This document shows positions 3,910 to 57,481 of a DNA stretch of 64,000 nucleotides, piece after piece. The number at the start of each line of letters is the position of its first letter. Position 1 is the first letter of the stretch. The DNA comes from an uncultured Ruminococcus sp. (GTDB lineage: Bacteria; Bacillota; Clostridia; Oscillospirales; Acutalibacteraceae): the NCBI GenBank assembly GCA_904393835.1, contig CAJFNC010000009.1:8660-72659 (forward strand). The letters run 5' to 3'. A model generated the notes under the pieces. That model saw only the letters and a program-made list of their open reading frames with translations, was not told where the DNA came from and did no database searches. The position numbers and the translations under genes were made by a program.

Positions 3910-4380
3910 TCAGTTACTGCTGTTACCGCTTTTTTGCGAATTAACTATACTTGTTCTGGTCTTTTTAATTGTTTCAAGCTGTTCCGCAATTGCCTGCTCT
4001 GTGCGTTTAATAATGCTGTCAACATAAACGTTGGTAGCTTTTCTGATTTCGGCAGACTTTTTCTTAGCATCGTCAACTATTTCCTTTGCCTTTGCCTGAG
4101 CCTCTCTTACCAACTCATTTTGGTTGAGCATTGCTTTTTTGCGTTCCTCGGCGGTTCTGATAATATTTTCAGACTCTCTTTTTGCCTCGGCAAGAATCTG
4201 CTTTCTGTCAGCAACAATATTTTTTGCCTGTCTTACCTCGGCAGGCATTGCATCCTGAATCTGGTCAAGAATGTCATAAATATCATTGCTGTTTACCATA
4301 ACTTTACCGCCGGAAAACGGAACAGGCTTTGCATCGTTAACCACATCCTGAAGCTGTAAAATCAATTCATCAACTTTCAT
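3910..4380 (-). CDS. DivIVA/SepIVA-like coiled-coil protein
   Basis: N-terminal LQDVVNDAKPVPFSGGKVMV...LDQIQDAMPAEVRQA followed by a long coiled coil; directly downstream of rsmD-coaD. Confidence 0.6.
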   Translation of the reverse strand: MKVDELILQLQDVVNDAKPVPFSGGKVMVNSNDIYDILDQIQDAMPAEVRQAKNIVADRKQILAEAKRESENIIRTAEERKKAMLNQNELVREAQAKAKEIVDDAKKKSAEIRKATNVYVDSIIKRTEQAIAEQLETIKKTRTSIVNSQKSGNSSN

Positions 4381-4414
4381 ATTTTCCACTCCTTATTCCT
4401 ATATACGAAATAGA

Positions 4415-4906
4415 TTATTTTCTTAAAGTGAGCATTCGCTCGACAATTTCATCACGAATACAATCGGGAACAAAATTAGTTATATCTCCGCCCATAGCGG
4501 CAACCTCACGCACCATACTGGAACTGAGATACATCGAATCCGCGTTTGCCATCAAAAAGATGGTTTCAAGCTCGGGATTGATTTTTTTATTTGTAATCGC
4601 CATCTGGAACTCATATTCAAAATCTGATACGGCGCGCAAACCCTTTACAATCGCGTCGGCACCGCGCTGTTTGCAATATTCCGCAAGCAGTCCGTCAAAA
4701 CTTGATATCTCAACATTCTCGATATCACCGGTAACTTCCTCCAAAAACCTCATTCTTTCCTCGGTAGAAAAGCACGGCGACTTTGCGGAATTTACCAGGA
4801 CTGCCACTATTACATGGTCAAACATTTTAGCCGCTCTCTTGATTATGTCAAGATGTCCCAGTGTTACCGGATCAAAACTGCCCGGACAAATTACTGTTTT
4901 ACTCAT
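4415..4906 (-). CDS. coaD: Phosphopantetheine adenylyltransferase
   Basis: PGSFDPVTLGHLDII, KGLRAVSDFEYE, LSSSMVRE. Confidence 0.98.
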   Translation of the reverse strand: MSKTVICPGSFDPVTLGHLDIIKRAAKMFDHVIVAVLVNSAKSPCFSTEERMRFLEEVTGDIENVEISSFDGLLAEYCKQRGADAIVKGLRAVSDFEYEFQMAITNKKINPELETIFLMANADSMYLSSSMVREVAAMGGDITNFVPDCIRDEIVERMLTLRK

Positions 4907-5451
4907 TTTACAAAATCCTTATGTCTGTAAGTACTTATTTTTATTTTACCATAGCGATACTGTCTGTCAAGTACAAAATCGCCGTAATTCGACAAAAGTT
5001 CTTCATCAAAAGGATTTTCCGCAATAATTACGCCGGTTTCTTTCATTGAATCGGTAATTTTTTCAAGAGCCTGCTGAAGCATTCCCGTTTTATATGGCGG
5101 ATCCAAAAAAGCAATATCAAACTTGGTTGTATTCATCAGCAAAAAGCTGTGAAAGTCCAACGCCAAAGTCTTTGCTTTGTTATCAAGCTTCGTTGTTTTT
5201 AAATTTCTGTTTACCGTATCAAGCGACTTTTTGGAATTGTCAACAAAGTATGCCTCTTTAGCGCCTCTGCTGAGTGCTTCAATGCCCATCTGACCCGAAC
5301 CGGCAAACAAGTCGAGAAATGTTCTGCCCTCGATTTCAAATTGGATAATTGAAAAAATTGCCTCTTTTATTCTGTCGGTAGTAGGTCTTACATCTTCGCC
5401 GTCAAGGGTTTCAAGGCGTCTGCCTCTCGCCGATCCTGTTATAACTCTCAT
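4903..5451 (-). CDS. rsmD: 16S rRNA m2G966 methyltransferase RsmD
   Basis: MRVITGSARGRRL, RPTTDRIKEAIF, LDLFAGSGQMGIEALSRG, DPPY. Confidence 0.97.
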   Translation of the reverse strand: MRVITGSARGRRLETLDGEDVRPTTDRIKEAIFSIIQFEIEGRTFLDLFAGSGQMGIEALSRGAKEAYFVDNSKKSLDTVNRNLKTTKLDNKAKTLALDFHSFLLMNTTKFDIAFLDPPYKTGMLQQALEKITDSMKETGVIIAENPFDEELLSNYGDFVLDRQYRYGKIKISTYRHKDFVK

Positions 5452-5528
5452 AGTATCTTCCTTTACTTTTGTGCTGTAAGTATAACATATTTTTCGTCAT
5501 TTTACAACAATATTTTGTGTTTTATACT

Positions 5529-7370
5529 TTATTCACGGTCAAATTTCTCAGGGTGAAAATACTTATACACCGCCAAGGCAGCGTCTTTTGTCATTTTCGG
5601 AGCATTCTCAATCTCTTGCAAATCAGCTTTTGAAATGTTTTCTATTGTGCGAAAATAACGCAAAAGATTTTTTGCTCTAACCTGACCTACACCGTCAATC
5701 TCGGTAAGTGAACTTTTAAAAGTGTTTTTGCTTCGCCTGTTGTGGTGATAACCGATGGCAAATCGGTGAACCTCATCCTGCATTTTGCTGACAAAAGTAA
5801 ACAGCGCGCGTTTTGAACTGATTGAGATTTCTCCGCCGTCGCCCGTAATTGCGCGAGTGCGGTGTTTGTCGTCCTTTACCATACCAAACAAAGGAACGTC
5901 TATTCCAATTTGTGCAAGCGCCTGCTTTACGGCTGCAACCTGTCCCTTACCGCCGTCCAGCAAAATAAGGTCGGGCATTTTGCCAAAGCCCTCGTCGCTC
6001 TTTTCGGCTTTTTTGTACTCCTCAAAACGGCGCGTCAGCACTTCTGCCATTGATGCGTAGTCGTCCTGACCCTCAAATCCCTTGATTTTGAATTTGCGGT
6101 ATGCCGACTTGAGCGGCTTGCCGTTTTTATAAACAATCATACCTGCCACGTTTTCGGTGCCCGCAAGGTTTGAAATGTCGTAGGATTCGATATATTCCGG
6201 AAGCTTTTTGAGTCCCAAAGCGTCCTTGAGTTCCTCAAGTACGCCGTATTCACGCACTGTTGCGCCCTTTTTTTGAGCCAGAGCTTCGGCGGCGTTGGAA
6301 CGACACATTGCAACTAACTGAGCCTGTTCGCCTCTTTGCGGCACTGTTACGTTTACCTTATTGCCCCGCTTTTGCGAAAGCCATTGCGAAATTTCTTCCA
6401 TATCGTCAAGCTCACGGTCAATAGCGATATTTTTAGGCACATCGTTTCTCAGAGTGTAGTAGCTGAGGATAAATTCCTCAACGTCCGATTGCGGATCGCC
6501 GCTGTCAAAAATGAAGCTTTCTCTGTCAAACAGCCGTCCGCCCTCAAATCGAAATACCTGAAAGCATACCTTTCCGCCGTCGGTAAAACACCCTATTACA
6601 TCTTGGTCAAGAATTTTATTTGAAACAACTTTCTGCTTATCGCGCATTTTTTTGACAGAATTAATTTTGTCGCGGATTTTTGCGGCGCGCTCAAATTCAA
6701 GGTTTTCAGCCGCCCGCTCCATTTCCTCAGTCAGTTTTTTAATCGAGTTAGACGAACCGCCCTTTAAAAACTCAAGCGCCTGAGCAACGCTTTCCTGATA
6801 ATCTTTTAGCTTTACCCTGCCCGTGCACGGCGCCATACATTGTTTTATATGATAATTAAGGCACGGTCTGCTCTTGCGGAAATCCCTCGGGAATTTTCTG
6901 TTGCAGGTTGGGAGCATAAAAATTTTGTTAGCTTCCTCCACGGCATTTTTTACATAGTAACTGCTTTTGTATGGTCCGATATAACGCGCGCCGTCGTCAT
7001 TTTTTTGAAGCGCATAGGTGATTTTGGGCCAGTCGCCGTCACTTACACGGATATAACTGTAGCCTTTGTCATCCTTGAGAAGAATGTTGTATTTCGGGGT
7101 GTGCTGTTTGATAAGACTGCATTCAAGGATAAGCGCCTCAAACTCACTGTCGGTAATAATATACTCAAAATCGTCAACATTATCCACCATTCGGCGAACC
7201 TTTTCGGGATGGTTGTTTTGCGAGCCGAAGTACTGGCTTACCCTGTTTTTGAGCGCCTTTGCCTTGCCGATATATATAATTTTTGAATCTTTGTCGTGCA
7301 TTATGTACACGCCCGGCAAAAGCGGGAGCGCCATGGCTTTTTTGCGGAGCTGTGACATTTTTGGATTCAT
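5529..7370 (-). CDS. uvrC: Excinuclease ABC subunit C
   Basis: GIY-YIG N-terminus (PGVYIM...IYIGKAKALKNRVSQYF), YDISN, DGGKGQ, C-terminal HhH. Confidence 0.98.
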   Translation of the reverse strand: MNPKMSQLRKKAMALPLLPGVYIMHDKDSKIIYIGKAKALKNRVSQYFGSQNNHPEKVRRMVDNVDDFEYIITDSEFEALILECSLIKQHTPKYNILLKDDKGYSYIRVSDGDWPKITYALQKNDDGARYIGPYKSSYYVKNAVEEANKIFMLPTCNRKFPRDFRKSRPCLNYHIKQCMAPCTGRVKLKDYQESVAQALEFLKGGSSNSIKKLTEEMERAAENLEFERAAKIRDKINSVKKMRDKQKVVSNKILDQDVIGCFTDGGKVCFQVFRFEGGRLFDRESFIFDSGDPQSDVEEFILSYYTLRNDVPKNIAIDRELDDMEEISQWLSQKRGNKVNVTVPQRGEQAQLVAMCRSNAAEALAQKKGATVREYGVLEELKDALGLKKLPEYIESYDISNLAGTENVAGMIVYKNGKPLKSAYRKFKIKGFEGQDDYASMAEVLTRRFEEYKKAEKSDEGFGKMPDLILLDGGKGQVAAVKQALAQIGIDVPLFGMVKDDKHRTRAITGDGGEISISSKRALFTFVSKMQDEVHRFAIGYHHNRRSKNTFKSSLTEIDGVGQVRAKNLLRYFRTIENISKADLQEIENAPKMTKDAALAVYKYFHPEKFDRE

Positions 7371-48491: not shown

Positions 48492-49065
48492 CGTGCTTTC
48501 TTACCCCCATATTTTTCAAAAGACTCACACATACCTCTGTCATCATCTTACTGATTTCCTCACCCGTAAATCGGCACATATTGGTAGCGCAAAGCATTGC
48601 TATACCGTGAGTGTATATCCAAAGGTGACGGTACAATTTTACGGCAGAAACACTGTCTATTCCAAAGTCCCGTTGTATAGATGAGATAATTTGCTCATAG
48701 TTGTCATCTATCAAAGGCAGTACATCTGTCAAATCGGGAATTTGCTTATGCTCATTCATAAAGAGAAGCCGAAACAGTTTCGGTTCATTTATCGCAAAAA
48801 GAATATACTGCATTCCCACACCTTTAAACGCCGGCTTTTGTGATAATCCTTTTTGGACATATTCTTTATAACGCTTTTTGGCTTCTTCAATTACGGACTG
48901 CTGTACCTCTTCCATATTTTGGAACACTGTAAAAATCGGTCTTGCCGAACTGCCGAGCTTTGCGCCCAAAGCTCTTGAAGTTAAAGAGTCAACACCCTCT
49001 TCCCTGACAATGGTTAATGCGGCTTTTGTGATTTCTTCTTTTGAAAATTTTGCTTTTGGCGGCAC
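48484..49065 (-). CDS. TetR/AcrR-family regulator (WHG-like C-terminus)
   Basis: N-terminal HTH (LTSRALGAKLGSSARPIFTVF), LWIYTHGIA; GTG start; overlaps the ATPase start. Confidence 0.88.
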   Translation of the reverse strand: MPPKAKFSKEEITKAALTIVREEGVDSLTSRALGAKLGSSARPIFTVFQNMEEVQQSVIEEAKKRYKEYVQKGLSQKPAFKGVGMQYILFAINEPKLFRLLFMNEHKQIPDLTDVLPLIDDNYEQIISSIQRDFGIDSVSAVKLYRHLWIYTHGIAMLCATNMCRFTGEEISKMMTEVCVSLLKNMGVRKHDD

Positions 49066-49099
49066 TCAATATCAATCCCTTTAATTAAAATCAAGCGTT

Positions 49100-49168
49100 T
49101 TAAATCAATTGATTTAATTATAAGTGAATATCTTCCGGAAGTCAATATTTCAAACGTAAATTTTACGT
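49100..49168. promoter_or_regulatory. Two palindromes upstream of tetR (candidate operators)
   Basis: TTAAATCAATTGATTTAA (perfect 18 bp, 49100-49117) and ACGTAAA-T-TTTACGT (49154-49168). Confidence 0.4.
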
Positions 49169-49265
49169 AAAAAGCAAACAGCGTAACGTACAAAAAATTA
49201 ATGCACGTCACGCTGTTTGTTTAAGTTCTGCTTATGATTATTTATCTGTGCAGTGATGGAGCAGA

Positions 49266-49403
49266 TCACTTTTTAAAGTTCTTCAATGCCTGCGGCTGCT
49301 TGGGCTGATACTGGAAAACAATGCATGCAGAGTTTGTGCTTTTTACGGCAGTTTTAACAGCCGCATCGGTAACAGCTTTTTTCAACATCTTTGTTGCTTT
49401 CAA
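49266..49403 (-). CDS. agrD: AgrD-type cyclic (thio)lactone autoinducing peptide precursor, 45 aa
   Basis: Hand translation from TTG after AAGAGGTG: MKATKMLKKAVTDAAVKTAVKSTNSACIVFQYQPKQPQALKNFKK; clostridial AgrD layout (leader, NSAC-xxxx-YQP, basic tail); adjacent to agrB/A/C. Confidence 0.9.
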   Translation of the reverse strand: MKATKMLKKAVTDAAVKTAVKSTNSACIVFQYQPKQPQALKNFKK

Positions 49404-49477
49404 TGTTTTCACCTCTTTTCTATTATATTTTATAGTTATATTTTATCACCTTATTATGTTAATTTCAATCACGTATT

Positions 49478-49507
49478 CCTGAAAACAACTATTTCCGCCC
49501 TGAATGT
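49478..49507 (-). promoter_or_regulatory. LytTR-type direct repeat upstream of agrD
   Basis: ACATTCAGG-12-GTTTTCAGG (21-bp period) on the minus strand. Confidence 0.7.
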
Positions 49508-49510
49508 CTC

Positions 49511-49550
49511 AGAACAAAAAAGAAACGCATAATTTTGTTCTGCGTTTTTT
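49511..49550 (-). terminator. Probable terminator between agrC and the agrD promoter
   Basis: AAACGCA...TGCGTTT stem followed by CTTTTTTGTT on the minus strand. Confidence 0.55.
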
Positions 49551-49571
49551 GTCATATTATATTGTTTTTTA

Positions 49572-49702
49572 TTCAAAGTTTCGGCTTTTATTAAGGCAAG
49601 CAAATCATTGCACCGCAAATTCAGCAGTAGGTTGTATCCTCCGCCGAATTTTGATAATGTCCCCCATCTTTATAGGCGAGGGACATTATCTTGTTTGTTA
49701 TA
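49572..49702 (+). repeat. Dispersed multi-hairpin intergenic repeat, copy 4 (overlaps the agrC stop codon)
   Basis: TTCAAAG...GCAAGCAA...AAATTCAGC...GAATTTTGATAATGTCCC...GGGACATTATCTTGTTTGTTATA. Confidence 0.8.
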
Positions 49703-50990
49703 TCGGAATTGTAATTTCAGTATAAAAATATTTGTCGTCGTATGATATATTATATACACAGCGATATTTTTCAACTGTTGATTTAATTATTGACAAACCC
49801 ATTCCGTCGTGTTCCGGTTTTGTGGAAAGTATTTTATTTCTGTGTTTATTTATTTTTCCGTCAAATGTATTTTTTACATTTATCAATATAAAATCGTTTG
49901 CTTTTTTAATTTTAAATTCTATTAACCTTTTTTCGGGTCCAAGTTTAAGGCAAGCCTCGATGGCGTTGTCCCACAGGTTTGAAAACAATGCGGTAATATC
50001 AATATCGCTCAAAAAACTGAAAGATAAATCCTCTACGTCTGTTATCACTTTTATCCCGTTGCGCTCGGCATATTCGATTTTTTGACTGAATATTACGCCT
50101 AAAATTTTATTTGAAGCCTGAAACCCCATATACAATGAATCGACCTCATGTTCTACCTTTTGTTTGTATTTTAAAGCCGCCTCACTGTCTTTTGTATTTA
50201 ATTCGTTTAATACATTAAGGTGTTTTTTCATATCGTGAATAATTTTACGTGTTTTTTCATATTGTAAAATCATTTCATTGTAGTTTGCAATCTGCATTTC
50301 ATTCTGCCTTTTCATTATATCAAGCTCATACTGCAATTTATAAGCGTTTGACAATTTTTCCAATATATATGAGGCATAAACGTTCAGCAAACAAAAAACA
50401 GCTATCATTATAACTAACACATATCCGTCACTTGTAGATGTTGCTTTTTTTACATAAACATACAAAATGAAAAATTCCGATATAAATAGTAATAATGTAA
50501 AAATTATCTCTTGTACTCTGATAGAAATTGTACCCTTTTTACTGAGAAAAACGGTAAACATTTTATAGATAAAAATTATTACAATAATATTTAGCAAACA
50601 GCTGATGATAAATATTAATACGTCGCTTATAATCTGCTCTAAATTTTTACCCGATATTACAAGCCATATAAATGTAGTAAAAATATCGCTGAACGCCAAA
50701 AAGGTAAGGTAAAGCATATTGTATAATATCGACTGCTTAAAACCGATGTCATACAAAATCAAGCATATTACATTGAAACCGATAACGGCATATAAAAAAT
50801 TAATCAAATACATATTTAATTGATTAATCAACACCATACATATGCACGAAAAAACAAAGACTGCTATGTACAATATTTTGTTGTCGTACCTTGGCTTATA
50901 AACCTTTCCGAAAAAAGAAAATGTCGCAACATTGATTACTATCGCCAAAAGTATTCTGATGCCAACTACTGCTATATGCAAATTTAACAT
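49698..50990 (-). CDS. agrC: AgrC-like GHKL sensor histidine kinase
   Basis: Multi-TM N-terminus, RKIIHDMKKHL, NLWDNAIEAC, STKPEHDGMGL. Confidence 0.88.
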   Translation of the reverse strand: MLNLHIAVVGIRILLAIVINVATFSFFGKVYKPRYDNKILYIAVFVFSCICMVLINQLNMYLINFLYAVIGFNVICLILYDIGFKQSILYNMLYLTFLAFSDIFTTFIWLVISGKNLEQIISDVLIFIISCLLNIIVIIFIYKMFTVFLSKKGTISIRVQEIIFTLLLFISEFFILYVYVKKATSTSDGYVLVIMIAVFCLLNVYASYILEKLSNAYKLQYELDIMKRQNEMQIANYNEMILQYEKTRKIIHDMKKHLNVLNELNTKDSEAALKYKQKVEHEVDSLYMGFQASNKILGVIFSQKIEYAERNGIKVITDVEDLSFSFLSDIDITALFSNLWDNAIEACLKLGPEKRLIEFKIKKANDFILINVKNTFDGKINKHRNKILSTKPEHDGMGLSIIKSTVEKYRCVYNISYDDKYFYTEITIPI

Positions 50991-50994
50991 CCCC

Positions 50995-51714
50995 TTAACT
51001 GCGAAGAATCTGCGAAAGTTTGTTTAAAAAGTCCTTTTGCTTTTTAGTTGCAAGAGGCAGCCACTCGCCGTTGTCCATTATAACTCCGTCATCCTTGCGG
51101 ATTGACTGCACGTGTCTGAGATTTACTATACAGGATCTGTTTGTCTGGTAAAATCCGTCATTTTGAATTTTGGAATATATGTCCGATAAATTTTCCTTTA
51201 CAACATATATCTTTTTTGAGGTATTAACCTGTACTCTCCTTTTTTCGAGCAAAATAAAATATATTACCTCGTCAAGCGGTTGAATTTCGACTCCGTTACC
51301 GGTAAAAAGCTCGACATTTTTCGCGTCATTCTTAAAATTAAAATACTTTATAACATCTTTTAGCGTCTGTGTAACAGCCTCAATCGACAACGGTTTTGTA
51401 ATAAAATCAAAAGCGTGAACCTTGTACGCTCTTCTGCTGTAATCAGCGTAACTGGTAATATAAACAATCGGTACATAATTATCGGTTTTGCGTATTTCCA
51501 TACCAACGGAAATACCGTTTGAATCCTGCATTTCGATATCCATAAAAATTAAATCAAAATGCTTTTCTTCTTTGAGCATCTGTGTGCCGTCGTAATATTT
51601 TTCAATATTAACCGCGATATTGTTTTTATCAAAAAAAGAAGATACAATTTTTTCAAGATTTCCAACGCATCTCACTTCATCATCACAAATTGCAATATTA
51701 AACACGTTTATCAT
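50995..51714 (-). CDS. agrA: AgrA-like LytTR response regulator
   Basis: IAICDD, LIFMDIEM, FDFITKP, LytTR domain (FYQTNRSCIVNL). Confidence 0.9.
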   Translation of the reverse strand: MINVFNIAICDDEVRCVGNLEKIVSSFFDKNNIAVNIEKYYDGTQMLKEEKHFDLIFMDIEMQDSNGISVGMEIRKTDNYVPIVYITSYADYSRRAYKVHAFDFITKPLSIEAVTQTLKDVIKYFNFKNDAKNVELFTGNGVEIQPLDEVIYFILLEKRRVQVNTSKKIYVVKENLSDIYSKIQNDGFYQTNRSCIVNLRHVQSIRKDDGVIMDNGEWLPLATKKQKDFLNKLSQILRS

Positions 51715-51791
51715 CTTCCCAACATAATAAAATTGTAAAAGTTAATTCAACAAAAATTATTATACACTAATGTTGCAAAAATTTCCACTAA

Positions 51792-52370
51792 TTATTTATT
51801 ATGTCGCGCGCTTTTTTTGTATCCTGCCGCAAGCAGTATCCCGGACATTGTTATTGCCAGCATTGCAGCAGAGGACAAAACATAAATTTTAAAATACAGC
51901 ATTATCAAAGCAAAAATGACTTCTGCAATTAAAATAACAATTGAACGAGTTTTGAACTTGACAATTTCGTCCTTTTCAAGCCTTTTATTTTCGCTGTCAA
52001 CGGGGGCAAGCAAAATTATCGCGATTCCGCTTAAAAATGCCGTGACCGCAAGCACAATCATTGTTGCAGTATTTACATACATAAGTACCAGCATTGCAAC
52101 TATCATTGTGAGCATTGACTGTATAAAGCACCGAATCCTGGTATCCGCATGATACCCTCCGGCGTTTGTACGCAGTATGGTAAAAAGCACAAGATAAACA
52201 ACGCACTCAAAAAACATTCCCATAAACGCACCTATTACCAGACAGACGCCAAAGAAAATTATTTTGAGCAACATTAATTCTATGCCGTATTTTACAACCG
52301 CAATTTTGTCGTCATCAAAATTCTCTCCATCGCAAACACGTACGGTAATCCAATTTACAAGTTTATCCAT
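51792..52370 (-). CDS. agrB: AgrB-family peptide-processing membrane protein
   Basis: KYGIE, LRTNAGGYHADTRIRC (catalytic His/Cys motif), APVDSENK; start moved to MDKLV after GAGGTG. Confidence 0.93.
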   Translation of the reverse strand: MDKLVNWITVRVCDGENFDDDKIAVVKYGIELMLLKIIFFGVCLVIGAFMGMFFECVVYLVLFTILRTNAGGYHADTRIRCFIQSMLTMIVAMLVLMYVNTATMIVLAVTAFLSGIAIILLAPVDSENKRLEKDEIVKFKTRSIVILIAEVIFALIMLYFKIYVLSSAAMLAITMSGILLAAGYKKSARHNK

Positions 52371-52386
52371 AATACACCTCAAATAA

Positions 52387-52428
52387 TAATATTGCAATAA
52401 TATTATACAACATATTATTGCAATATTA
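52387..52428. promoter_or_regulatory. Perfect 17-bp inverted repeat around the TATAAT upstream of agrB
   Basis: TAATATTGCAATAATAT-8-ATATTATTGCAATATTA. Confidence 0.55.
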
Positions 52429-52499
52429 AACAGTTAAAGTATATTTTTTCACTCTACAAACTATATTTGTTAATTTTATGCAATCAAGGCGGATGACTC

Positions 52500-55810: not shown

Positions 55811-57481
55811 TCAAGAAAAGCTAAAAAACTCTCCTGAAAATTGTGCGCCGTCTATCGGCTCTATCGGTTCACCGTCAAGGATAGAGACAAGCATAGAATG
55901 TACCTCCTCCGGTACAGATTCCACACCTAAAAGAACTAAAAATTTTCCTGAACGCAAAGCGTAAGGATACTCAGACATAAACTCCTTTGCCTTATCCTCG
56001 GATTCAAATTCCATAAACGGAAAATATGAGGTCACCGTTCCGCCGTCCTGCTCCCAACTGAGCTTTACTGAAAAACCTGCCTCTGCGTCGGCGCCCTCCG
56101 ACTGGAACGAATCCTTAACGCCGTAATCCTTATCCTTTGCCTTTTGCCACATATTAACCAGCTCTTCGCTGCCGCTCGGCGGTGTCTCGCTGATTGCACC
56201 TGTTTTATTGGAGTTTGACGACTTTGTCTGTGATTCAGGATTCAGACAAAAGGTTTTTTCCCATAATTTTCCGTTCAGGCTTCCAAGCTCGCTTTTATCG
56301 TAATAGAATATAAAGTTTCCGTTATCGTTCTTACCTCCGAACAAAAATACTTCATCGTCAATAGGAAGCAAAAACCATGTTTTAGCTGAACCGTCGCCCA
56401 AAGAAAATTCATCTACCTTATTCAGCTTTGAATCATACACGGTAATATATCTCTCTTTTCTGTTCACGGGCTCGTCATTTGTGGCCATCCGCTGGATATT
56501 TAATGCAATGTAGTTATCCACATACATATATTTTCCGTCACAAATAATATTTTCATGCTCGTAAGTCTCAAAAAATTTTTCGGGATTGTTTCCTTCAAAA
56601 TCGGTTTTGTAATATATATACTTGCCGTTTTCTTCATCGCCTGATGAAAATATCAACATTCCGTCTAAATACATAGGAGTGAACAAATAGTTACCCGTAC
56701 CTGCAGGAGAAAGCATTTCGGTAACAGAATAATCGCTGAGATTCATTTTGAGCCTTTTGCTGATATTTACGGTTTTATTATCGCGCTTCATACCGTTAAT
56801 GGCAAAGTACAAATTATCTCCGTAAGCCATAAGCTCTGATATTTGTGCGTCCCGCTGCACCTCTTCTGCAAAATAAATTTCCTTTGGCTCTGACGACGAT
56901 TTATCAAGGGAATAGCTGTAAATATAGCAGTCAATATCATTTATATTTTCCATTCCCGTGTTTTCGTCGATTGAATATTTTCTCACCGTATAATAAAAAA
57001 CGCCTCTGTGAATTATCCATTCATCGGGAGCCAAGTCCATATGAAAAACAGTTTCCTTTTGACTGCCGTCGGCGGACATTCTTATCAGATTGGAGCCCTC
57101 AAAATTGTACTCATCATCTGCGCTCTCAACAAAGTAAATGCTGCCGTCGTAATAGCTGATGTTATCGACCACACCAATATTTGAATTGCAGCTGTCGTCA
57201 TTATGCATACAGTTGGGCTTATTGCACAGTGGCGTAGCCTGCATTGTTTCACCTTCAACATAGTAGATATTTTTATTTGCTAATACATAGTACCCGGTTT
57301 CACATTTTGCAATATTTGCCTGCGACATAGGCAAATAGTCGGAATTTACCAGCTGACAATCCTTGGTATAATCATAATCTCCCTTGTTTTGAATATCCTC
57401 ATTTGAACAACCGCCGAATATTGATAAAACGCTGAAAGCCGCAAGTATTAAAGCCAATGTTTTTTTTATTATATGTTTCAT
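55811..57481 (-). CDS. Lipoprotein, predicted beta-propeller with PLCxKxxCxH..C motif and extra C-terminal domain
   Basis: Lipobox FGGC, PLCNKPNCMHNDDSC, aromatic strand repeats, Ser-rich linker. Confidence 0.75.
   Translation of the reverse strand: MKHIIKKTLALILAAFSVLSIFGGCSNEDIQNKGDYDYTKDCQLVNSDYLPMSQANIAKCETGYYVLANKNIYYVEGETMQATPLCNKPNCMHNDDSCNSNIGVVDNISYYDGSIYFVESADDEYNFEGSNLIRMSADGSQKETVFHMDLAPDEWIIHRGVFYYTVRKYSIDENTGMENINDIDCYIYSYSLDKSSSEPKEIYFAEEVQRDAQISELMAYGDNLYFAINGMKRDNKTVNISKRLKMNLSDYSVTEMLSPAGTGNYLFTPMYLDGMLIFSSGDEENGKYIYYKTDFEGNNPEKFFETYEHENIICDGKYMYVDNYIALNIQRMATNDEPVNRKERYITVYDSKLNKVDEFSLGDGSAKTWFLLPIDDEVFLFGGKNDNGNFIFYYDKSELGSLNGKLWEKTFCLNPESQTKSSNSNKTGAISETPPSGSEELVNMWQKAKDKDYGVKDSFQSEGADAEAGFSVKLSWEQDGGTVTSYFPFMEFESEDKAKEFMSEYPYALRSGKFLVLLGVESVPEEVHSMLVSILDGEPIEPIDGAQFSGEFFSFS

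What the first reader, a model, noticed from the sequence alone, without database searches (positions are those of the whole stretch)
49266..49403. Hidden agrD: predicted new autoinducing peptide with a CIVFQ ring
This 45-codon TTG-start ORF falls below the ORF-track cutoff but has a strong RBS. By analogy with clostridial AgrD (C. perfringens ring CLWFT followed by HQP), AgrB would cyclise Cys-Ile-Val-Phe-Gln ahead of YQP into a 5-residue thiolactone, possibly with a short N-terminal tail (NSA). The polar Gln at the ring-closing position is unusual relative to the AIPs I know. It completes an AgrBDCA system in a probable gut commensal.
Basis: partly seen in the sequence, partly recalled or inferred. 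Interest (0 to 1): 0.65.

Follow-up and report, generated by a model that had tools for sequence, protein, structure and literature searches.

The report
AgrD quorum-sensing peptide gene, CIVFQ ring
The short gene is a genuine AgrD precursor of a cyclic quorum-sensing peptide in an uncultured chicken-gut Ruminococcus-like bacterium; it is a new sequence variant of a well-known, already annotated peptide family, so it is real but fairly ordinary.

Summary
The 45-codon TTG ORF on the minus strand (49266-49403) is real and is an AgrD. It scores 40.6 bits against NCBIfam TIGR04223 (cut-off 19). It lies after agrB, a LytTR regulator (agrA) and an AgrC-type kinase. A gene of the same family holds the same post-agrC position in at least 15 diverged Oscillospiraceae loci.

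It looks like a separate transcription unit:
- a terminator after agrC;
- a conserved LytTR-type direct repeat (ATTCAGGG, period 20-21) ending 7-8 nt before a TTGAAA-17-TAAAAT promoter;
- a strong SD;
- its own terminator.

Two chicken-gut metatranscriptomes hold a contig on agrD and almost nothing else across the 10 kb laid.

Two clostridial precursors with known products (CLWFT|HQP and CVLVTL|YEP) place AgrB cleavage just before x-[Q/E]-P. That predicts CIVFQ|YQP, a 5-residue ring. It is probably tail-less and then rearranges to the lactam.

The Gln is not an oddity. It closes the ring in 58 of 118 subfamily representatives. CIVFQ itself was found neither among the 120 relatives listed nor in the literature.

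Verdict: a new member of a known kind. NCBI already names relatives 'cyclic lactone autoinducer peptide'. The peptide product, its regulon and its function are untested. Interest is modest.

The parts
49266..49403 (-). agrD coding sequence (45 aa + stop): leader MKATKMLKKAVTDAAVKTAVKSTNSA, predicted ring CIVFQ, follower YQPKQPQALKNFKK
   Evidence: (TIGR04223 40.6 bits)
49410..49415 (-). Shine-Dalgarno GAGGTG, 6 nt before the TTG start
   Evidence: read directly
49440..49468 (-). sigma-70-type promoter TTGAAA-17-TAAAAT with TG extended -10
   Evidence: the same position holds TTGAyT-N17-TAnAnT in related loci
49477..49505 (-). LytTR/AgrA-type direct repeat ATTCAGGG-N13-TTTCAGGA (period 21), ending 8 nt before the -35
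   Evidence: At most 2 mismatches to RTTCAGGG x2 in 7 of 15 loci (0/300 shuffles each). It is the only genome-wide hit at that stringency that also has promoter context.
49512..49550 (-). hairpin plus U-run after agrC (probable terminator that insulates agrD)
49572..49703 (-). copy of a ~130-nt dispersed structured repeat that fills the agrC-agrD spacer and overlaps the agrC stop
   Evidence: at least 50 copies in the genome; z -6.6
49168..49219 (-). 18-bp hairpin plus U-run: intrinsic terminator of the agrD transcript
   Evidence: z -4.6
49698..50990 (-). agrC-type histidine kinase (about 7 TM segments in residues 1-209, H-box IIHDMKKHL, HATPase_c_5)
50995..51714 (-). agrA-type response regulator (receiver + LytTR)
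51792..52370 (-). agrB (PF04647; likely ATG at 52370 behind GAGGTG; GGYH-x6-C motif)

Best explanation
The ORF is the AgrD precursor of an agr-type quorum-sensing circuit in an uncultured chicken-gut Oscillospiraceae (Ruminococcus-like) bacterium. Proposed mechanism: (1) The 45-aa precursor is made from its own short transcript. (2) AgrB (51792-52370) removes the follower YQPKQPQALKNFKK and closes Cys27 onto Gln31, giving a 5-residue thiolactone CIVFQ. (3) A second protease removes the amphipathic leader, most likely completely, as in other Clostridia. The tail-less thiolactone can then shift S-to-N to the homodetic cyclo(CIVFQ), [M+H]+ 591.296. (4) The polytopic AgrC kinase senses the peptide and phosphorylates the LytTR regulator. 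(5) The regulator binds the direct repeat just upstream of the agrD -35 and raises precursor supply. This gives positive feedback on agrD alone, because agrB, agrA and agrC lie upstream of a terminator and lack the box. Shown here: family membership, gene set, conserved synteny, conserved box and promoter, and the presence of RNA contigs. Inferred: ring register, tail length, which AgrB and AgrC partner it, regulator binding, and any regulated phenotype.
For: - Family membership: TIGR04223 at 40.6 bits against a cut-off of 19.
- Partner genes on the same strand: AgrB PF04647 E 1e-36, LytTR regulator and HATPase_c_5 kinase.
- Conserved position: a TIGR04223-like ORF lies directly after the AgrC homologue in at least 15 loci whose kinases are only 36-50% identical. 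AgrB is detected upstream in L003-L005, L028, L033 and L034.
- Conservation pattern typical of AgrD: invariant Cys, variable ring, conserved YQPK.
- Cleavage register: anchored by C. perfringens SACLWFT|HQPEEP and C. acetobutylicum GKCVLVTL|YEPKMP, with reported products CLWFT and CVLVTL (PMC12312760; PMC8251862).
- Tail-less products and the S-to-N shift in Clostridia: PMC8251862.
- Promoter: the RTTCAGGG direct repeat sits 7-8 nt before the -35 in the window and in relatives.
- Terminators on both sides of agrD.
- RNA: metatranscriptome contigs lie on 49221-49404, with almost nothing else covered in 10 kb.
Against: - No peptide evidence exists.
- RNA evidence is thin: contig depth is 4-5.5, the contigs come from a strain variant, and they carry no strand information.
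- Ring size is not fixed in Clostridia. Six-residue rings are known, and relatives L097 and L103 have the Cys one residue closer to x-Q-P. CIVFQY or a tailed form therefore cannot be excluded.
- The genome has a second agrB, several other LytTR pairs and an orphan AgrC-like kinase, so partner assignment rests on proximity.
- No binding data exist for the box.
Confidence: 0.8

Rival explanations
1. It is a genuine AgrD, but the mature signal is not the tail-less 5-ring. It could be a 6-residue macrocycle CIVFQY (cleavage Y|QP) or a thiolactone that keeps a 1-3 residue tail (A-, SA-, NSA-CIVFQ) and therefore stays a thioester.
For: Six-residue rings exist in Clostridia: CVLVTL and CWFWSY, the latter ending in Tyr (PMC8251862). 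Relatives with C-x3-[HY]QP (L097, L103) show that the Cys-to-QP distance is not fixed. Q-Y is strongly conserved, so both residues could be ring or receptor contacts.
Against: Both anchored precursors are cut immediately before x-[Q/E]-P. The C. thermocellum ring ends just before a Tyr (PMC5322536). Every native clostridial AIP detected in PMC8251862 lacked a tail.
Confidence: 0.17
2. The ORF is a decayed or silent remnant. The peptide is not made, or it is not processed by the neighbouring AgrB, and the locus signals through the genome's other AgrD.
For: The gene is absent from the called-protein collection. It lies 2.4 kb from agrB and is separated from agrC by an inserted repeat and a terminator. 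A second agrB-agrD pair exists on contig C1.
Against: The frame is intact and scores well above the family cut-off. SD, promoter, box and terminator are all intact. The same arrangement is conserved in many species. RNA contigs are centred on the gene. AgrD2 belongs to a different, Ser-type subfamily that has its own kinase and regulator.
Confidence: 0.03

Closest known systems
Clostridium perfringens AgrD / AIP CLWFT (agrBD, sensed through VirS/VirR)
   Same: Same family and same layout around the ring: SAC-x4 | [H/Y]QP-x-x-P-K-x-L. The product is a 5-residue, tail-less ring. Close relatives of the window peptide carry CLWFQ, one residue away from CLWFT.
   Different: The ring is CIVFQ with Gln, not Thr, at the closing position. 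Here a cognate AgrC/AgrA pair is encoded in the locus, and agrD is not adjacent to agrB.
Staphylococcus aureus agrBDCA (P2/P3, AgrA direct repeats)
   Same: The same four components are present. A LytTR regulator has paired direct repeats just upstream of the -35, and the circuit follows autoinduction logic.
   Different: The gene order is B-A-C-terminator-D. Only agrD carries the box, so feedback would act on precursor supply alone. No RNAIII-like effector was found (Rfam search of 49050-49760 gave nothing significant). The follower is basic (YQPKQP...KNFKK) rather than acidic.
Clostridial cAIPs (Ruminiclostridium cellulolyticum Rc-AIP1, C. acetobutylicum; PMC8251862)
   Same: Clostridia-class AgrD. 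Tail-less products are expected to undergo an S-to-N acyl shift to homodetic cyclopeptides.
   Different: Those rings have 6 residues, whereas this one is predicted to have 5. Their function (sporulation control) cannot be assumed here.
Gut-microbiome AIP families mined in bulk (PMC11953309)
   Same: AgrD-type RiPP precursors of gut Firmicutes, predicted from sequence by the same logic.
   Different: That survey covered human-associated genomes, while this peptide is from chicken-gut metagenomes. I could not check whether this subfamily is among its families.

Membership tests
AgrD (TIGR04223, cyclic lactone autoinducer peptide) | Scores above the curated family cut-off | tested here: met
   40.6 bits against a cut-off of 19, E 2e-10; 39.5 bits in the six-frame genome search. 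No Pfam AgrD hit.
AgrD (TIGR04223, cyclic lactone autoinducer peptide) | 40-50 aa tripartite peptide: amphipathic basic leader, Cys/Ser-x4 core, charged follower with conserved Pro | tested here: met
   45 aa. The Cys27 column is invariant, Q33/P34 are (nearly) invariant and the ring is variable in 15 relatives. The alignment with 20 genus AgrDs is gap-free.
AgrD (TIGR04223, cyclic lactone autoinducer peptide) | Encoded with an AgrB (PF04647) that carries the catalytic His/Cys pair | tested here: met
   AgrB E 1e-36, 2.4 kb upstream on the same strand. The motif GGYH-x6-C is present here, in AgrB2 and in L003. That these residues are the catalytic H77/C84 equivalents rests on published S. aureus work, recalled from memory and not aligned here.
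AgrD (TIGR04223, cyclic lactone autoinducer peptide) | Processed to a secreted cyclic (thio)lactone or lactam peptide | not testable with these tools
   Needs LC-MS/MS; predicted masses are.
agr-type quorum-sensing locus | Cognate polytopic HPK10 kinase (AgrC) and LytTR response regulator (AgrA) | tested here: met
   HATPase_c_5 E 2e-22, about 7 TM segments and an H-box. Response_reg + LytTR. Scores against the staphylococcal equivalog models are far below their cut-offs, so these are family members, not orthologues.
agr-type quorum-sensing locus | Autoinduced promoter with paired LytTR direct repeats upstream of the -35 | tested here: met
   The repeat pair lies at 49477-49505, 8 nt before TTGAAA, and is conserved in relatives. 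Binding and induction are not testable here.
agr-type quorum-sensing locus | Canonical agrBDCA operon order with agrD next to agrB | tested here: not met
   The order is agrB-agrA-agrC-terminator-agrD. The same order holds in related loci. Gene order varies among Clostridia (table in PMC12312760), so this does not exclude membership.
agr-type quorum-sensing locus | agrD is transcribed | tested here: inconclusive
   Metatranscriptome runs X26 and X27 each hold a 190-203-nt contig on 49221-49404. Elsewhere in the 10 kb laid, only one 177-nt piece matched. Depth is low, the contigs are unstranded and they come from a strain variant. Run X12, labelled RNA-Seq, is covered evenly like DNA.

The most novel reading that the evidence does not exclude
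The C-x2-[W/F/Y]-Q | YQPK peptides of gut Oscillospiraceae may form a distinct signalling dialect. Only precursor supply would be autoinduced (order B-A-C / D), and the conserved ring-closing Gln would be functionally important. Its members (CLWFQ, CIVFQ and others) would be close enough to the C. perfringens signal CLWFT to interfere with that pathogen's Agr-like signalling in the chicken gut.
Probability: 0.1. Interest if true: 0.7.

Novelty: new member of a known kind. Interest (0 to 1): 0.3.

Why it matters
The finding gives a concrete, testable signal structure for an uncultured chicken-gut commensal: cyclo-CIVFQ, [M+H]+ 591.296. It also shows that this bacterium's clade uses a recurrent agr layout in which agrD sits after agrC behind its own LytTR-box promoter. 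Pipelines that look for agrD only next to agrB would miss it. The subfamily's rings resemble the C. perfringens AIP, so commensal-pathogen cross-talk in poultry guts is a reasonable experiment. As biology it extends a well-understood system rather than revealing a new one.

Tried and rejected
- Pfam gave no hit for the peptide; NCBIfam settled the family.
- A single-sequence homologue search found only one relative. A profile of 15 relatives was needed.
- A second box-like site at 55926-55952 lies inside a coding region without promoter context. A genome-wide count at 2 mismatches or fewer equals chance (7 found against 4-13 in shuffles). I treat that site as chance.
- Requiring promoter context left only the agrD site and one site before an orphan kinase on C10. 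No regulon could be read from the box.
- Rfam found nothing credible in the spacers, so there is no RNAIII-like RNA.
- PDB holds no AgrB relative by sequence.
- Run X12, labelled RNA-Seq, covers the locus evenly like DNA and was discounted.
- A search for the R. cellulolyticum AgrD1 precursor (ring CWFWSY), using chimeric query words, did not retrieve it. The supplement of PMC8251862 is not held.
- The CPBP protease next to agrD in L003 has no orthologue in this genome, only domain-level relatives.

Full report
**Observation.**
The ORF lies on the minus strand at 49266-49403. It starts at TTG 49403-49401 and encodes 45 aa: MKATKMLKKAVTDAAVKTAVKSTNSACIVFQYQPKQPQALKNFKK. GAGGTG (49415-49410) lies 6 nt before the TTG. 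The longer GTG form listed by the ORF finder starts inside that SD and is unlikely. Family members all begin M-K, as the TTG reading does. Pfam gives no hit. NCBIfam TIGR04223 (quorum_AgrD) matches residues 8-45 end to end at 40.6 bits (cut-off 19, E 2e-10). A six-frame search of the whole 2.05-Mb assembly finds the same place at E 1.6e-9. None of three start variants is in the 15-billion-protein collection, so gene callers did miss it.

**Surroundings.**
On the same strand, in transcription order, lie:
- an ABC ATPase and a large permease;
- agrB (PF04647, E 1e-36; likely ATG at 52370; GGYH-x6-C motif);
- a receiver+LytTR regulator (50995-51714);
- a kinase with about 7 TM segments, an H-box and HATPase_c_5 (49698-50990);
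- a 285-nt spacer;
- agrD;
- a TetR gene.

No other AgrD-like ORF lies near agrB. The genome has a second agr locus on contig C1, ordered A-C-B-D, with a Ser-type AgrD (SILGL|RQPKEP) and a second AgrB.

**The spacer.**
Bases 49572-49703 are one copy of a ~130-nt structured repeat with at least 50 copies in the genome. This explains why the spacer is longer than in relatives. After it comes a hairpin with a U-run (about 49550-49512). Next is a direct repeat, ATTCAGGG-N13-TTTCAGGA (49505-49477). Eight nt further is TTGAAA-17-TAAAAT with a TG extension (49468-49440), followed by the SD. Downstream of agrD, an 18-bp hairpin plus U-run (49219-49168) ends the unit. The sequence therefore predicts a monocistronic agrD mRNA of about 260 nt.

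**Comparative evidence.**
- The closest relative (P0001, 78% identical, ring CLWFQ) lies on four metagenome contigs ordered agrB, HTH (opposite strand), agrA, agrC, agrD.
- Loci found with the AgrC protein come from Ruminococcus and Oscillospiraceae genomes, among them Ruminococcus sp. CAG:403, Huintestinicola butyrica and Hominimerdicola. Their kinases are 36-50% identical to the window's.
- An HMM built from 20 genus AgrDs finds an AgrD directly after the kinase in at least 15 of these loci.
- Across the loci the Cys and the YQPK stretch are conserved and the ring varies, which is the expected AgrD pattern.
- The upstream regions share the box. Seven of 15 loci have at most 2 mismatches to RTTCAGGG x2 at period 20-21 (0 of 300 shuffles each). 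Three more have 4 mismatches at the same place. In all ten the box ends 7-8 nt before TTGAyT-N17-TAnAnT, and its first half-site starts 92-122 nt before the start codon.
- In the window's own genome the box with promoter context occurs only here and before an orphan AgrC-like kinase on C10. agrB and agrA-agrC have ordinary promoter-like sites and no box.

**Expression.**
The locus is present in chicken-gut metagenomes. Two runs filed as metatranscriptomic each hold a 190-203-nt contig on 49221-49404. That span is agrD plus its 3' UTR, from a strain variant. Only one other small piece matched in the 10 kb laid. This fits a short, abundant agrD RNA, but depth is low and the contigs are unstranded. 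A run labelled RNA-Seq is covered evenly and looks like DNA.

**Ring prediction.**
In the gap-free alignment the Cys/Ser column lies five residues before x-Q-P. I retrieved the C. perfringens precursor (…SACLWFTHQPEEPKSL…) and the C. acetobutylicum precursor (…GKCVLVTLYEPKMPEEL…). Their reported products are CLWFT and the 6-membered CVLVTL (PMC12312760; PMC8251862). Both end immediately before x-[Q/E]-P. The C. thermocellum lactone likewise ends just before a Tyr (PMC5322536). Counting from the Cys and counting from the follower therefore both give CIVFQ|YQPKQP.

Native clostridial AIPs detected so far lack a tail and rearrange to homodetic cyclopeptides (PMC8251862). The likely product is therefore cyclo-CIVFQ, [M+H]+ 591.296. 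A 6-ring CIVFQY or a tailed form is not excluded. The relatives CFVM|HQP and CFII|YQP show that the register can shift.

**The Gln.**
A profile search returned 175 relatives, and 120 were read. Several are named 'cyclic lactone autoinducer peptide' by NCBI, from Oscillospiraceae and Ruminococcus MAGs. In the 118 that fit the pattern there are 50 ring types. Position 5 is Gln in 58, Ile in 28, Leu in 15 and Arg in 6. The next three residues are YQP in 103. Gln is thus the norm of this clade. No relative has CIVFQ, and neither CIVFQ nor CLWFQ occurs in the searched literature. Gut AIP families have already been mined in bulk (PMC11953309).

**Verdict.**
This is a real AgrD and the prediction is sound. 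It is a new ring variant in a recognised, annotated family, and its layout (agrD after agrC, with its own LytTR box) is typical of its clade. Processing, sensing, autoinduction and function are inferred and not shown.

Noticed in passing
window 49572-49703 (and at least 50 other places in the genome, e.g. C1:11843-11937): A ~130-nt dispersed, strongly folding intergenic repeat at 70-80% identity between copies. One copy overlaps the agrC stop codon. Another sits directly after the second agrD on contig C1.
   Followed up: partly
G000 C1:8909-11838 (L002): A second agr locus ordered RR-HK-agrB2-agrD2. AgrD2 is Ser-type (…CGSAS ILGL RQPKEP…), predicting a lactone ring SILGL. Many genomes of the genus carry this G[ST]AS-x4-[HGA]QPKEP type.
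   Followed up: partly
G000 C10:8783-10227: An orphan AgrC-like kinase (435 aa, no adjacent regulator) is preceded by a LytTR-type box GTTCGGGG-N12-GTTCGGGA and then TTGAAA. It is the only other box with promoter context in the genome and a possible target of one of the LytTR regulators.
   Followed up: partly
L097, L103, L105 (same-genus genomes): These AgrDs have the Cys one residue closer to the follower (CFVM|HQP, CFII|YQP). This implies either a 4-residue ring or a cleavage shifted by one residue.
   Followed up: no
L003-L006, bases about 4119-5707: In the closest relative's locus, agrD is followed by a DUF5085 gene and a CPBP/Rce1-like membrane protease (PF02517, which from memory is the family of S. 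aureus MroQ, not checked here). The protease is a candidate leader peptidase. The window's genome has only two domain-level relatives elsewhere (C6, C17).
   Followed up: partly
window 55926-55952 (-): A box-like TTCAGG-N15-TTTAGG lies inside the 3' end of the gene upstream of the 796-aa ABC permease. It has no -35/-10 in register and is probably chance.
   Followed up: partly
window 52402-52429 and 51759-51787 (-): Separate sigma-70-like promoters lie before agrB (TTAATA-16-TATAAT) and before the regulator gene (TGGAAA-17-TATAAT), both without a LytTR box. This suggests agrB and agrA-agrC are not autoinduced.
   Followed up: no
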